This document shows, one piece after another, positions 38,911 through 61,008 of a stretch of 64,000 bases of DNA (within the stretch, counting starts at the first letter, position 1; every line of letters starts with the position of its first letter). Below the pieces are notes generated by a model. That model searched no databases. It was not told where the DNA came from and was given only the letters and a program-made list of their open reading frames with translations. Position numbers and translations under genes: made by a program. Location of the stretch: positions 1-64,000 of the IMG/VR virus record IMGVR_UViG_3300047157_000243; one strand, 5' to 3'. The stretch comes from a virus.

Positions 38911-39210
38911 ATGGCTTCTGATAATTATAGATATAATAAGTATAGCATGCCTGAACAAGATTGGGAAAAGAAACTTATTACATATTCTAACTTTATTTCA
39001 GATAGACTTAAGAGTTATTTGGCAAAAAAAAATATGACAACAGAAGTATTGTCTAAAAAGATTGGTATTTCAAACGATACAGCCAAATTGATGTTACACG
39101 ATATTTATGTTTATAATTATAGTATAGAAGAAATTTCTAAACTAGACCTTTTATTTGAAGGGCATTATGATGTTTATGAAAAAAAAGCTTTTGATAGAAA
39201 CAGTAAATAA
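38911..39210 (+). CDS. Possible XRE-type HTH protein
   Basis: L..KNMT...LSKKIGIS. Confidence 0.45.
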   Translation: MASDNYRYNKYSMPEQDWEKKLITYSNFISDRLKSYLAKKNMTTEVLSKKIGISNDTAKLMLHDIYVYNYSIEEISKLDLLFEGHYDVYEKKAFDRNSK

Positions 39211-39887: not shown

Positions 39888-40022
39888 TTATTTTCCCTGG
39901 CCTCTGTATTTTTTTTTGTAATACTTTGCACCTTTAGAGTTAGAATGTTTGCTTTTAGCATGAATACCTGGTCTTTTCTTTTTCATTTCACCAGAATTGT
40001 TTTTACTAGAAGATTTTGCCAT
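39888..40022 (-). CDS. 44-aa basic phage protein ending YRGQGK (missed by ORF track)
   Basis: MAKSSSKNNSGEMKKKRPGIHAKSKHSNSKGAKYYKKKYRGQGK; TATTTAT at 40049-40055. Confidence 0.75.
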   Translation of the reverse strand: MAKSSSKNNSGEMKKKRPGIHAKSKHSNSKGAKYYKKKYRGQGK

Positions 40023-40107: not shown

Positions 40108-40422
40108 ATGACTAAAAGTCTTTTGATAGAAAAGTGCGGACACCTGTCTCTTAATTTAACTTCTGTTCAAGTGATGGGAGAGTTTAGGCCATTAAGAACA
40201 TGTTGGACTCCCGAGCTCTATCAAGACTCAGAATATTATACTAATAATTATGAGGCAGAAGAGCCTGAAAACATTTTTAAAAAGAAGTTAATAATTGAAA
40301 AATATATACCTTATAACTTTAAAGATGTCGAATCAGAGCTTTCTAATATTTTAGCTACAGAACTTGGAGCATCTATTGATGCAGAGATATTAGGTAGTTT
40401 AATTGATTTGGAAAATGAATGA
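40108..40422 (+). CDS. Mini-protein made of T4 gp23-like major capsid protein fragments
   Basis: RPLRTCWTPELYQD and DVESELSNILATELGASIDAEIL match the gp23-family R.LKA.WT.ELAQD / DAEAELS.IL.TEI..EI.REI segment. Confidence 0.75.
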   Translation: MTKSLLIEKCGHLSLNLTSVQVMGEFRPLRTCWTPELYQDSEYYTNNYEAEEPENIFKKKLIIEKYIPYNFKDVESELSNILATELGASIDAEILGSLIDLENE

Positions 40423-40687
40423 TTCTATAAAGTCACATTTAGAAGAGTGGACTAATTTAGTTTATCCTAAAAAAGAAAACGTATACAAAAGAAAACTTCT
40501 TGTTGAAAAGTGTGTTGAATATACTGTTCGACATTCAGAAACTGATTTCACTGTTTTAGGTTATGACTTAATCACATCTGGTTCAACTATAATCGGAATT
40601 AGCTCTAGAGCAGTCGGCGGTCCAATTAATTATCCTACACACATAACAAGCTCAGAAGAATTTAGAGAAATTTTTGGTGATGTGTAA
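40415..40687 (+). CDS. Mini-protein containing a tail sheath (gp18-like) N-terminal fragment
   Basis: SETDFT...G.T..G......GP...P..ITS.EEF..IFG; ATG 40415 overlaps the upstream ORF by 8 nt. Confidence 0.7.
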   Translation: MNDSIKSHLEEWTNLVYPKKENVYKRKLLVEKCVEYTVRHSETDFTVLGYDLITSGSTIIGISSRAVGGPINYPTHITSSEEFREIFGDV

Positions 40688-40737: not shown

Positions 40738-41085
40738 ATGAGCTTAACACAAAAAGAGAAAGACGAAATTCACGAAAGAGTTGAAAGTATGACACCTAAA
40801 CAAAGAAGTCGTAGAATGGATAGGTTAGTAAATGAATCTATAATTAAGAGCGTAATTGTACATGCTGTTTTATTGTTATATGTACTTACATCTGTGTATA
40901 TAAAACAAAACTATGAAATTAATAGCCTTATATACATAGTTTTAATTGGGGTGGGTATTTTTTGGACTTACGGTTGTATGTTGACGTTTCAAGCATATCT
41001 GTTTTTTAAGAGCGCAAAAAATTTATCTAATTCATTTGGTTCAAGTATACAAGATGGTATTGATTTTTTAGATTTAAATGAATAA
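40738..41085 (+). CDS. Two-TM membrane protein
   Basis: Two hydrophobic helices. Confidence 0.65.
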   Translation: MSLTQKEKDEIHERVESMTPKQRSRRMDRLVNESIIKSVIVHAVLLLYVLTSVYIKQNYEINSLIYIVLIGVGIFWTYGCMLTFQAYLFFKSAKNLSNSFGSSIQDGIDFLDLNE

Positions 41086-41105: not shown

Positions 41106-41136
41106 AAAAAAGCGACTTATATAAAGTCGCTTTTTT
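41106..41136. terminator. Bidirectional intrinsic terminator
   Basis: AAAAAAGCGACTT-ATATA-AAGTCGCTTTTTT between convergent genes. Confidence 0.8.
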
Positions 41137-41160: not shown

Positions 41161-41934
41161 CTATTTTTTTTCTATTTCTGAAATTATTTTATTAGCTTCT
41201 TTTTTTAATTTTTTGATTTCTTCAGATTTTCTAGCTTCTTCTCTAAAGATTTTTCTAATATCATTTTCATTAATAGATTCATTCTTACCACTTATACCAG
41301 CAAGTTTCCTGTCTTTATATGCTGCTGCCAATGTAGGCTTTCCTTTCAGGTCTACAATTCTAATATCTTGTTTACTAACATTTAATCCATCCCATTTATT
41401 TTTAGGAGTTAATACTTTATCAATAAAAGATTGAACTCTTGATTTTAAACCAGCTTTTTCTTCATCAGTCAATTCTCTAACAACTTTACCAGCGGTTAAG
41501 TTGTCTACACCTTTCCATTCTATCATTTCACCTTTGTCTATTTCAGCTTCAACAGCTTTCTTGGCAAGAGATATAGCTTCTTCAGCTTTCTTCGGGTCTT
41601 TTTTAAACATGTCCATTACACCTTCTTCACACCTTCGCCTTCGTTTTCTTCAACACCTTCGTTTTCTTCACACCTTCGTTTTCTTCAACACCTTCGTTTT
41701 CTTCAACGCCTTCGTTTTCTTCAACGCCTTCATTTTCTTCAACGCCTTCGTTTTCTTCAACGCCTTCGTTTTCTTCAACGCCTTCTTCGCAAGTATCATT
41801 CTCTTCCATTGAGTAGTTCTCGTTTAAACGCTTTTTGAATTTTCGCTTTCTCAGCCTCTAAAGATTGAATTGTTAAAAAATCTATCAGCTTCTTCTTTTA
41901 TTATTTGACTAAGCTCTTGTTTTGAAATTTTCAT
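41161..41934 (-). CDS. Acidic repeat protein, possible head core/scaffold component (four compensating 1-nt indels; ORF track splits it)
   Basis: ATG 41934 MKISKQELSQIIKEEA is in frame with 41161..41616; extra bases at 41875-80 and 41832-36, missing bases near 41670 and 41629; about 257 aa restored. Confidence 0.65.
41636..41788. repeat. 18-bp tandem repeat encoding (EENEGV)x8
   Basis: ttcgttttcttcaacgcc/acc units. Confidence 0.9.
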
Positions 41935-58893: not shown

Positions 58894-59190
58894 ATTGGTC
58901 ATAATATAAAATTTGTTTGTTATGATAAGCTGTCCCCACCTTTCTCCCATTTGATATTCATGACCTTCCCAAACCATACGTTTATATATGTTTATTATTT
59001 TCTTGTTTATGAAAATTATATATAAACACAAAGTTATAAACATTTTTCAGTATTACACAAACCTTTATTGTAAAGGCTAATATGTATAAAAATGATATTA
59101 ATTTTTTATAAACAATAATCATTGCAAAATATAATGTTTTTTAAATTTTTGAGTATATTTATATGAAAAGTTACATTAAAAAGGTTTATT

Positions 59191-61008
59191 ATGGCCGACA
59201 TGAAAGATATAAAAAACGGAGAAGAGAAAAGTAATAAAGACTTTTCTAATTTGGAAGCAGAAACTCATAAGGTTTTTGAGATGATTAAAGAGTTACTTAA
59301 ATCAACTACTGAAAAAGAAATAGAAAAGCTTGGATTTACAAAAAACAATAAAATCGCTGGAGTTTATGGTGATGGAACAACATACGGAGCAGGAGTTGAA
59401 GAGGATGAATATAATGTCATCGTAACGTCAAGGCCTAGAAAGTTCAATAGTTCCAAAAATATGAGCCATGGATATGGGAATGGAACTTTTGAAAAACAAA
59501 TACTTATAGGAGCTAAAAGAGTTGAGTCTCAACTAGACTTTGAAATAAAAGGCAAAGTTCTACATGTACAATACAGAAGTCCAGAAGCTGGCTTTTTTAG
59601 AGGAGTTGAAGATGACGGTAGTACATTTATGGTAAGAAAAACAATAACAGTTCCATTAAAAGATGCTAAAAAAGCTCTAAAAGAAGATTTAGAAGACGCA
59701 GCAAGAAAAGAGGTGGGATATTTAACTCACACAAAATTAGGAGTAGAAGATAGGTTAGATGCCAGTACTACATCAATAGTTGAAAATTTAGATATGAAAA
59801 AACTAACACTTAAAAGCTTGTTTAAGGACGAGCTAGACTTTGAAACAAAAGAAGTCAATGAAGGATATGAAAAGCTTCCAGATGGAGAAGAAAACATAAA
59901 TGCATTTAAAAAACTTAACAAAGTTGAACTTCCAAACTCAAGTGATAGATTCTTGCTTTTTGATGACGAAGAACAATGCGAGGAATTAATCAAAGAATTA
60001 AACCTTGAAGAAGATGAAGAATTCAAAGAAAAACTTAAAGATGAATATGGAGTAGAAGATGGAAAGGTTTCCAAATTAACTCCTGCTGAAAAGACAGATT
60101 TTTTTAACTCACTAAAAAAAGAAGCAGAAAACTTAGAAGAAAACTTAGAAGAAATATCAATGTCAGGACCTTCCGTTGCAGGTGTTCAAGTTGGAGCTGG
60201 AGGTTATTTGCCAAAATTAGTTGCTTTAAGCAAAAAGAAGTTTTCTAAAGTCGGAGCCCCTTACAGCATCCCGGCTAATGACCCTATATATCAAGAGGCA
60301 GATGCTTTAAGTGAGTCTAAAAAAGCTTTTAAAAAGTCTTTTCAAAAAACAGCATATGCTAAAGGTCAAAAATCAAGACCTAAAGTTGATAAGAATTATA
60401 ATGTAATTCCTGAAACTAAAAACACTAACGCTAGTAAGCCTTATACTCAAGTGGTAAAAATAGACCCAAATACTCATCCGCTTGGAATGCCTTTCGTAAA
60501 GCCAAACAGCAAAGAAGAGTGGGAAAGAACTAGCGGTGTTGGTAGAGACCATGACAAGATGGAAAGAATGGGATTAAAAGAAGACAATTCTAACAAAACT
60601 TCTAGATTGGTTAAGAGAAAATTTATTTCTGAATCAGAAAACAAGTCTAAAGGTATAAATAAGAGATATATTGTTACAGAAAAAACAAATCAAGAATACG
60701 AATCTGACAGATGGAATAAACTTTCAAATTTTAAAAAGTTTGAAACAATAAAAGAGGCCGAAGAAATGAATTCTGTTCTTGAAAGTATAGAAGAATATAA
60801 TGATTTTTATCAAGAAAAGTCTAACATAATTAAAGAGTCAATTGCCCCAATTTCAAAAGATACTGAAAAAACTATAGAAGTAGAAAAGCCAGGAAGCGTT
60901 TTTGGAATTACTCAAAAGTTTTACGAAAAAGATTTTTTAAATGAAAACAAGCAATTTATATTAGATTTGAATTCTATGGTTTTTGTTTCGAATCCAAATT
61001 CAAAATAA
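59191..61008 (+). CDS. Large charged hypothetical protein (late-motif class, many L/I-x-E sites)
   Basis: TATTTAT at 59156-59162. Confidence 0.7.
   Translation: MADMKDIKNGEEKSNKDFSNLEAETHKVFEMIKELLKSTTEKEIEKLGFTKNNKIAGVYGDGTTYGAGVEEDEYNVIVTSRPRKFNSSKNMSHGYGNGTFEKQILIGAKRVESQLDFEIKGKVLHVQYRSPEAGFFRGVEDDGSTFMVRKTITVPLKDAKKALKEDLEDAARKEVGYLTHTKLGVEDRLDASTTSIVENLDMKKLTLKSLFKDELDFETKEVNEGYEKLPDGEENINAFKKLNKVELPNSSDRFLLFDDEEQCEELIKELNLEEDEEFKEKLKDEYGVEDGKVSKLTPAEKTDFFNSLKKEAENLEENLEEISMSGPSVAGVQVGAGGYLPKLVALSKKKFSKVGAPYSIPANDPIYQEADALSESKKAFKKSFQKTAYAKGQKSRPKVDKNYNVIPETKNTNASKPYTQVVKIDPNTHPLGMPFVKPNSKEEWERTSGVGRDHDKMERMGLKEDNSNKTSRLVKRKFISESENKSKGINKRYIVTEKTNQEYESDRWNKLSNFKKFETIKEAEEMNSVLESIEEYNDFYQEKSNIIKESIAPISKDTEKTIEVEKPGSVFGITQKFYEKDFLNENKQFILDLNSMVFVSNPNSK

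What the first reader, a model, noticed from the sequence alone, without database searches (positions are those of the whole stretch)
40114..40510. A shared short motif (K/R-x-L-[LI]-[IV]-E-K) precedes each structural fragment
Seen: TKSLLIEKC (40111-), ENIFKKKLIIEKY (40267-) and ENVYKRKLLVEKC (40475-) sit immediately before capsid fragment A, capsid fragment B and the sheath fragment. The second copy lies in an insertion between two segments that are nearly adjacent in gp23. The copies are similar in protein but diverged in DNA, and I saw no other clear copy in the window. Inference: a modular tag+bait design in which the tag docks on a common partner (phage hub, chaperone, protease adaptor or membrane anchor). 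This argues against random decay.
Basis: partly seen in the sequence, partly recalled or inferred. Interest (0 to 1): 0.8.

Follow-up and report, generated by a model that had tools for sequence, protein, structure and literature searches.

The report
Shared peptide tag on giant-phage mini-proteins
The short K-x-L-L-I-E-K motif is real and is one copy of a roughly 15-residue peptide tag that a group of giant marine phages puts on small proteins (over 100 in one complete genome), including odd mini-proteins stitched from conserved pieces of capsid and tail-sheath proteins; it most likely acts as a signal that loads proteins into the head and lets them be clipped there, though this is untested.

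Summary
They are far above chance, conserved as protein and not as DNA. They precede true fragments of T4-type major capsid protein gp23 (Pfam positions 130-164 and 165-196) and of the tail-sheath N-terminus.

Relatives keep a cluster of three mini-genes, A, B and C. Window ORF2 is a B/C fusion made by a deletion between two tag copies.

An exhaustive HMMER search found at least 35 clusters (at 50% identity) of tagged mosaic mini-proteins. They carry pieces of gp23, the sheath N-terminus, a box like the prohead-protease serine loop, and possibly portal.

No full-length gp23 or sheath examined carries the tag. It is therefore not part of the structural proteins.

In a complete 518.8-kb phage (G007) the tag occurs 124 times, against about 8 expected. 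In a 212-kb relative it occurs 52 times, against about 4. The copies lie mostly near the N- or C-termini of small ORFan proteins.

The tag always contains L/I-x-E, the cleavage motif of the T4 prohead protease. In one mosaic it replaces the gp23 propeptide junction.

Best reading (about 45%): a signal for loading into the prohead and processing there, like the T4 capsid targeting sequence. The decoy idea is neither shown nor excluded. Decay is rejected.

The scan had noted this same stretch twice before.

The parts
40108..40422 (+). Mini-gene A (104 aa): tag, gp23 piece, tag, gp23 piece
   Evidence: ORF list. Twelve homologues of about 100 aa keep both tags. dN/dS is 0.18-0.8 with the frame intact at dS above 1.
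40111..40137 (+). Tag copy 1 (TKSLLIEKC), at the N-terminus
   Evidence: L6, E8 and K9 are invariant or nearly so across homologues.
40138..40236 (+). gp23 fragment, Pfam Gp23 positions 132-164 (P-domain strand, R-x-L-R-x-x-W-T-P-E-L)
   Evidence: weak in the window. The same segment scores 22-33 bits in relatives. BLASTP to full-length capsid proteins.
40267..40305 (+). Tag copy 2 (ENIFKKKLIIEKY), inserted between two adjacent gp23 segments
   Evidence: K58, K59, L61, E64, K65, Y66 and P68 are invariant.
40324..40407 (+). gp23 fragment, Pfam Gp23 positions 169-196 (spine-helix region)
   Evidence: This is the only confidently predicted element, a helix at residues 74-102.
40415..40687 (+). 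Mini-gene ORF2 (90 aa): N-terminus of gene B fused to gene C
40415..40474 (+). Short leader resembling the N-terminus of the gp23 propeptide (delta domain), with the conserved Trp
   Evidence: Alignment with the B family and with full-length gp23 N-termini. The homology is positional and of moderate confidence.
40475..40513 (+). Tag copy 3 (ENVYKRKLLVEKC)
40503..40510 (+). Deletion junction: TTGAAAAG microhomology shared by the tags of B and C
   Evidence: DNA comparison with L003.
40514..40684 (+). Fragment of the tail-sheath N-terminus (sheath residues about 5-60). It holds a G-I-S-S-R-A-x-G box that also resembles the serine loop of the prohead protease.
   Evidence: tblastn to sheath genes. 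hhalign E 2.9e-5. BLASTP to three real sheaths. Protease loops for comparison.
40738..41085 (+). Co-oriented membrane-like protein (115 aa), conserved after gene C in all close relatives
   Evidence: dN/dS is 0.15-0.27.
41106..41136 (.). Hairpin flanked by A and T runs, terminator-like on both strands; closes the A/ORF2/membrane-protein unit
38911..39210 (+). HTH (Cro/C1-type) protein. Its C-terminal tag is frameshifted in the window (cryptic LLIE at 39188-39199).
   Evidence: Pfam HTH_26. Relatives end in YEKKLLIEK. DNA comparison.

Best explanation
The motif is the core of a peptide tag of about 12-15 residues. Its consensus is E-[ND]-V-[YF]-[KT]-R-x-[VL]-[LI]-x-E-K-[YFH].

A group of AT-rich giant marine phages with T4-type head genes uses this tag in two ways. 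It sits near the N- or C-terminus of many small accessory proteins. It also acts as a spacer between segments of mosaic mini-proteins built from conserved pieces of the phage's own kind of major capsid protein (gp23), tail sheath and perhaps other virion proteins.

The tag is not part of the full-length capsid or sheath proteins. These points are shown.

Inferred: the tag is an address and processing signal for the prohead. It would work like the T4 capsid targeting sequence or an encapsulin cargo-loading peptide. It docks the protein on the scaffold or the inner shell during head assembly. Its embedded L/I-x-E site is then cut after the Glu by the T4-type (S77) prohead protease, releasing the cargo inside the head. 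From there the cargo could be injected with the DNA.

Genes B and C add a short leader like the gp23 propeptide in front of the tag, as expected for cargo that borrows the capsid protein's own targeting device. What the released capsid and sheath pieces do is not known.
For: Shown:
- Enrichment and clustering of the motif.
- Conservation of both tags in 14 homologues of gene A.
- A tag logo from 72 instances in mosaic proteins.
- 35 of the 150 best HMMER representatives are tagged mosaics, and no full-length gp23 carries a tag.
- Complete genome G007 has 124 tags against 8 in shuffles. Of these, 37 lie near an N-terminus and 55 near a C-terminus, and the median ORF is 117 aa.
- G008 has 52 tags against 3.8. 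Controls LR756508 and S-BM3 are at chance.
- Codon use at the conserved tag residues equals the genome-wide use, so selection acts on the peptide.

For the protease and targeting reading:
- All 124 tag matches in G007 (about 8 would be expected by chance) have [L/I/M]-x-E. The Glu was fixed by the pattern itself; the Lys that follows it in 118 of 124 was not.
- T4 gp21 cuts after L/I-x-E. The 10-residue T4 capsid targeting sequence uses an aromatic and a hydrophobic residue for targeting and I-x-E for cutting (PMC9026906; PMC12991175).
- G007 encodes an S77 prohead protease.
- In the G007 B-type mosaic the tag sits exactly where the genome's own capsid protein has its presumed propeptide junction...H-M-L-N-E/V....
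- The protease-scaffold protein of the 462-kb phage LR756500 starts with a tag-like K-K-S-L-L-I-I-E-R.
- Gene B ends in an Arg-rich tail directly after a tag, as expected of a DNA-binding internal head peptide.
- The proteins are predicted to be mostly disordered, that is, accessible to a protease.
Against: - No cleavage, virion association or binding has been shown for any member.
- The tag is much longer and more constrained than a minimal gp21 site (R at P6, V/L at P4, K at P1'). This also fits a pure docking motif.
- T4 targeting sequences are strictly N-terminal, whereas many tags here are C-terminal or internal.
- More than 100 packaged protein species would be without precedent.
- Phages with an S77 protease but no tags exist (LR756508).
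- In the 75 kb available for the window's own phage, tags outside the cluster are at chance level. Proteome-wide use in this phage is extrapolated from G007 and G008, whose kinship to the window rests on shared mosaic genes, one neighbouring gene and base composition.
- A sheath fragment has no obvious business inside a head.
Confidence: 0.45

Rival explanations
1. The tag is a docking motif (a short beta-strand or linear motif) for a common partner other than the capsid. Candidates are a chaperone, a host hub protein, or an AAA+ protease that uses it as a degradation signal to remove early proteins on time. The L/I-x-E match would then be coincidental.
For: The constrained stretch is long and prone to form a beta-strand. 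It sits at either terminus of many unrelated small proteins. It occurs at the C-terminus of an HTH regulator, a protein not expected in a head. AlphaFold2 gives a faint strand pairing of the two tags in P0016, at low confidence.
Against: It explains neither the invariant Glu with L/I two residues before it, nor the placement of the tag at the gp23 propeptide junction, nor the propeptide-like leader on B and C. No candidate partner has been identified.
Confidence: 0.25
2. One reading: tag plus bait. The capsid, sheath and other fragments would be decoys for host sensors of conserved virion proteins, or dominant-negative caps that poison the assembly of competing phages. The tag would dock them on a shared partner.
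For: Only the most conserved segments of gp23 are kept, and sheath residues 3-60. The gp23 segments include the N-terminal region that holds the Gol peptide sensed by the Lit protease in T4 (PMC3014915). A serine-loop box and a weak portal piece are also kept. Evolution is fast, with dN/dS 0.2-1 against 0.1-0.2 in flanking genes, and modules turn over. Bacterial sensors do target conserved cores of virion proteins (PMC13581612).
Against: The tag is carried mostly by proteins with no structural fragment. Known Avs sensors recognise whole folds over extended interfaces, not short peptides. A Gol-like peptide would be expected to trigger, not block, a Lit-type defence. No defence or exclusion phenotype is known.
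Confidence: 0.15
3. The mini-genes are decaying remnants of duplicated structural genes, and the motif is a recombination scar or a DNA- or RNA-level element.
For: The window's ORF2 arose by deletion at an 8-nt microhomology inside the tags. dN/dS is raised. The window has frameshift-type lesions nearby (against 14).
Against: Frames stay intact at dS above 1, and there are at least 35 diverged clusters. Tag copies differ in DNA, and their codon use equals the genome average. Tags are inserted at different places in orthologous fragments. Enrichment is 14-15-fold across whole genomes.
Confidence: 0.04

Closest known systems
[quoted passage not shown]
   Same: A short peptide is shared by otherwise unrelated small proteins. 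It has an aromatic and a hydrophobic residue upstream of L/I-x-E and a Glu at the cut position. The phage has a T4-type capsid protein and an S77 protease. The cargo genes are hypervariable accessory genes.
   Different: The tag here is longer and far more conserved. Lys follows the Glu. It sits at the N-terminus, the C-terminus or internally. It is carried by 50-120 proteins rather than a handful. No experimental evidence exists.
Encapsulin cargo-loading peptides
   Same: Short terminal peptides, at the C- or N-terminus, that address diverse cargo to the interior of an HK97-fold shell. This resemblance is from my own knowledge and was not tested here.
   Different: The consensus is different. 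Encapsulins use no protease step. Here the shell would be a phage head that also packages DNA.
Processed head and ejection proteins of phiKZ, 201phi2-1 and SPN3US
   Same: In giant phages many head proteins are cut after Glu at a short motif, and propeptides carry several sites (PMC9026906).
   Different: Those motifs are S/A-x-E, and the substrates are mostly large proteins. Mosaic proteins made of structural fragments are not described there.
Gol peptide of T4 gp23 (trigger of the Lit protease)
   Same: Gene B of relatives and the larger mosaics keep the conserved N-terminal quarter of gp23, in which Gol lies. The exact residue match is from my memory of the T4 sequence.
   Different: Gol is a region of the full-length capsid protein, not a separate gene. 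No Lit-like partner is known here.

Membership tests
Major capsid protein Gp23 (PF07068): fragments only | Significant match to the family profile | tested here: met
   Window ORF A scores 24.1 bits, just under the 24.4 cut-off. Orthologues score 38-49 bits and gene B 27-29 bits.
Major capsid protein Gp23 (PF07068): fragments only | Full HK97-type fold (profile positions 1-376) | tested here: not met
   Only positions 2-51, 130-196 or 309-348 are present in any one mini-protein. They are pieces, not capsid proteins.
Tail sheath | Match to the N-terminus of real sheath proteins (S-P-G-V-Y ... G-P-x-x-x-P ... F-G) | tested here: met
   hhalign E 2.9e-5 over sheath residues 3-60. BLASTP to the G007, NCTB and S-BM3 sheaths. 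Pfam and PDB profile searches gave nothing.
T4-type capsid targeting and prohead-protease signal | L/I-x-E with cleavage after Glu | tested here: met
   The sequence rule is met in all copies. Cleavage itself was not tested.
T4-type capsid targeting and prohead-protease signal | S77 (gp21-like) prohead protease encoded by the same phage | tested here: inconclusive
   Present in G007 at 109.9 bits. Absent from the 75-kb fragment of the window's phage and from four related fragments, none of which holds a structural module.
T4-type capsid targeting and prohead-protease signal | N-terminal position, about 10 residues | tested here: inconclusive
   True for copy 1 of gene A and for many G007 and G008 proteins. 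However, 55 of the 124 G007 tags are C-terminal and the mosaic tags are internal.
T4-type capsid targeting and prohead-protease signal | Tagged proteins found processed in virions | not testable with these tools
   There is no cultured member and no proteome.
Pseudogene or decaying duplicate | Broken frames, dN/dS near 1, no conservation across lineages | tested here: not met
DNA-level repeat or regulatory element | Conservation of nucleotides beyond what the peptide requires | tested here: not met

The most novel reading that the evidence does not exclude
The mosaics are 'polyepitope' proteins: strings of the most conserved peptides of the capsid protein, the sheath, the protease and the portal, separated by protease-cleavable loading tags. 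They would be packed into the head, cut into peptides and injected with the DNA. There they would jam host sensors of conserved virion proteins, or the assembly of rival phages, from the first second of infection. They would form one class within a very large repertoire of tag-addressed injected proteins in giant phages.
Probability: 0.12. Interest if true: 0.95.

Novelty: new variant of a known kind. Interest (0 to 1): 0.8.

Why it matters
If the tag is a head-loading and processing signal, it gives a one-line sequence rule. That rule predicts dozens to more than a hundred virion-delivered proteins in uncultured giant phages. This class is otherwise found only by proteomics. It is also where T4 keeps its anti-defence proteins.

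The finding also reveals a widespread family of mini-proteins, not described in the papers I found. They are assembled from the most conserved segments of virion proteins. These segments are conserved for reasons that are now testable: assembly interference, decoys, or control of the protease.

The tag could also serve as a tool for loading cargo into capsids.

Tried and rejected
The metagenome scan did not return it either.
- The word-based search for longer relatives of gene B found nothing.
- A PDB profile search with the C family gave only noise.
- AlphaFold2 models of ORF A and of the B-C fusion P0016 were of low confidence (pLDDT 57 and 53). No fold search was attempted on them.
- The hit in LR756500 that looked like a mosaic gene was that phage's full-length capsid protein.
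- LR756508 and S-BM3 have no tags above chance.
- The portal-like piece (P0023, P0042) matches S-BM3 gp20 residues 349-396 only weakly, E 0.05-0.35 in a nine-protein database. The genome search did not see it. It is a lead only.
- The G-[IV]-S-S-R-G box is identical to the serine loop of the G007 protease. In gene C, however, it also aligns with the sheath at G-x-x-G-x-x-x-K-G-P, so its origin is ambiguous.
- I guessed that one tagged 231-aa G007 protein is a terminase fragment. Pfam did not support this. Ten tagged G007 proteins have no convincing Pfam family.
- I first equated the tag with the L-L-E-N-Q box of the gp23 propeptide. Mosaics that carry both boxes (P0028 and others) show they are distinct. 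There the tag lies at the propeptide junction, downstream of L-L-E-N-Q.
- A full-text search for 'LLENQ' was useless.
- Promoter-like sites upstream of gene A are no more frequent than in shuffles.
- No earlier finding on other DNA resembles the mosaics.

Full report
**What is in the window.** Two overlapping small genes lie at 40108-40422 (ORF A, 104 aa) and 40415-40687 (ORF2, 90 aa; its ATG overlaps the stop codon of A). A 115-aa membrane-like gene follows, then a hairpin flanked by A and T runs.

The window is the first 64 kb of a 75-kb viral fragment, judged about 25% complete and 31% G+C. It has no close cultured relative. Related contigs come from marine samples, TARA among them.

**The cargo really is made of structural fragments.** ORF A matches Pfam Gp23 at positions 132-164 and 169-196. 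Its orthologues score 38-49 bits, above the curated cut-off. BLASTP of ORF A against full-length capsid proteins gives E 4e-10. The second tag therefore sits in an insertion between two segments that are contiguous in gp23.

ORF2 and its family align to residues 3-60 of real sheath proteins. hhalign gives E 2.9e-5 and 42% identity. BLASTP to three sheaths gives E down to 2.4e-8 in a small database. More distant family members read tag plus S-P-G-V-Y-I-R-E, the canonical start of a sheath.

**The motif is not chance and not a DNA element.** The extended pattern occurs 2-7 times per related contig, against 0.01-0.07 in shuffles. Copies within the window are 38-58% identical in DNA and use different codons for the same residues. 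In 124 copies from a complete genome, codon use at the conserved residues equals the genome average.

**The cluster is conserved but plastic.** Six related contigs keep the following order:
- an HTH gene with the tag at its C-terminus;
- divergently transcribed genes;
- gene A;
- gene B;
- gene C;
- a membrane protein.

Gene B is missing from the window. It consists of a short leader like the start of the gp23 propeptide, a tag, the N-terminal 'Gol' region of gp23 (Pfam positions 2-51, 27-29 bits), a second tag, and an Arg-rich tail.

The window's ORF2 is the head of B joined to the body of C. The crossover lies inside the tags, at the microhomology TTGAAAAG. One relative carries an extra tagged 89-aa gene between A and B.

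dN/dS is 0.18-0.8 for A, 0.28-0.64 for B, and about 0.5 to above 1 for C. Flanking genes give 0.1-0.2. Frames remain intact at dS above 1. These are real, fast-evolving genes.

**A large family of tagged mosaics.** An exhaustive HMMER search with the N-terminal part of B gave 894 hits. Among the 150 best representatives, 35 are short tagged mosaics, and none of the full-length gp23 proteins carries a tag.

- Type I proteins are B alone, or B and C fused in one ORF.
- Type II proteins read: tag, sometimes a piece resembling portal residues 349-396 (weak), tag, a genuine gp23 propeptide start with its L-L-E-[NS]-Q box, a G-[IV]-S-S-R-G box, a basic amphipathic stretch, the Gol region, and a final tag.

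The G-[IV]-S-S-R-G box is identical to the serine loop of the phages' own prohead protease. In gene C the box could equally be diverged sheath sequence.

The tag logo from 72 instances is E-[ND]-[VL]-[YF]-[KT]-R-x-[VL]-[LI]-x-E-K-[YHC]-[KI]-[PK].

**A complete genome settles two points.** A degenerate DNA pattern for the tag found clusters in G007 and G008. G007 is 518,809 bp with terminal repeats and is judged 100% complete. G008 is 212 kb.

First, the real capsid protein (519 aa), sheath (773 aa) and protease of G007 carry no tag. The sheath starts M-A-T-V-F-V-S-P-G-V-Y.

The same genome also holds three kinds of gp23 mini-gene at three separate loci:
- a B-type;
- an A-type;
- a 'tag plus gp23 C-terminus' mini-gene.

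For two of the three (the B-type and the C-terminus type) the best match is G007's own capsid protein, at 38-47% identity. The A-type scores slightly higher against the LR756508 capsid protein.

In the B-type protein the tag replaces the presumed propeptide junction of the capsid protein. In the A-type protein the second tag is inserted at a different place than in the window's ORF A. Tags were therefore acquired repeatedly.

Second, the tag is used across the proteome. G007 has 124 copies against about 8 in shuffles. Of these, 37 lie within 35 residues of an N-terminus and 55 within 25 residues of a C-terminus, and the median ORF is 117 aa. G008 has 52 against 3.8, with a crisp core L-T-R-K-V-L-T-E-K-F. 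Ten tagged proteins that I tested have no convincing Pfam family. Two giant or T4-like phages used as controls are at chance.

**Mechanism.** All 124 tag matches in G007 contain [L/I/M]-x-E. The search pattern itself fixed the Glu; the Lys that follows it in 118 of 124 copies was not fixed. T4 gp21 cuts after L/I-x-E. The T4 capsid targeting sequence is a 10-residue leader in which an aromatic and a hydrophobic residue target the protein, and I-x-E is cut (PMC9026906; PMC12991175; PMC3012670).

Four further observations point the same way:
- the placement of the tag at the gp23 propeptide junction;
- the propeptide-like leaders of B and C;
- the tag-like N-terminus of a protease-scaffold protein;
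- the Arg-rich tail of B.

Taken together, I read the tag as a loading and processing signal for the prohead (about 45%). This is inference; nothing was tested at the bench.

A docking or degradation motif for another partner is the main rival (about 25%). The decoy reading of the fragments is compatible with either and remains open (about 15% in the form stated). Decay or a nucleic-acid element is essentially excluded.

**Limits.**
- The window's own phage is known from only 75 kb, which holds no structural module. Outside the cluster its tags are at chance level.
- The AlphaFold2 models are of low confidence and suggest mostly disordered proteins, apart from the spine-helix piece.
- The exact match between gene B and the T4 Gol residues, and the encapsulin comparison, rest on my own knowledge.
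- The scan had noted this same stretch twice before. It holds no look-alike on other DNA.

Noticed in passing
window 39180-39210: The HTH gene 38911-39210 has one extra G after an A8 run compared with relatives. This throws its C-terminal tag (LLIE, 39188-39199) out of frame. It is either a real frameshift or a homopolymer assembly error.
   Followed up: yes
window 41161-41934 (minus strand): Relatives have one 256-295-aa gene here with an E-E-N-E-G-[VI] tandem repeat. In the window it is split into three ORFs (41851-41934, 41627-41809, 41161-41616). This is another frameshift-type lesion next to the cluster.
   Followed up: partly
window 39888-40022 (minus strand): A 44-aa, very basic ORF (Lys/Arg/Gly-rich, ending K-K-K-Y-R-G-Q-G-K) is conserved in all close relatives with dN/dS about 0.1. 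It has no Pfam family. Function unknown.
   Followed up: partly
L003:6540-6610 and L005:5890-5960: An (AGA/GAA)n run is read as poly-Arg at the end of gene B and as poly-Glu at the start of gene C in another frame. Slippage there would fuse B and C, and single-ORF B-C fusions exist elsewhere (P0016, P0017).
   Followed up: partly
L026:4308-4577: An extra 89-aa gene between A and B starts with a tag (M-S-K-R-N-L-I-I-E-Y). Its cargo matches no Pfam or PHROG family.
   Followed up: partly
G005:12398-12559 and G006:62362-62592: A small protein family (D-N-K-E-L-Y-H...) ends in the tag. Together with the HTH protein it is a non-structural tagged cargo in the window's lineage.
   Followed up: partly
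G008 (L125), about 25.9-38.8 kb; G007 (L121), about 505-508.6 kb: Long tandem arrays of paralogous small genes, each carrying the tag near its N-terminus (G008) or C-terminus (G007).
   Followed up: partly
L084:1222-2793 (LR756500.1): A 313-aa ORF is a truncated paralogue of that phage's capsid protein (C-terminal half), and the adjacent 209-aa ORF gives a weak Pfam Gp23 match. Neither carries a tag. Giant phages keep partial capsid-protein copies in other forms too.
   Followed up: no
window 59167-61005 and G008:152785-154650: A conserved protein of about 610-620 aa carries an internal tag-like K-R-Y-[IL]-V-T-E-K at the same position in both phages. It may be a chance match or a real internal site.
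   Followed up: no
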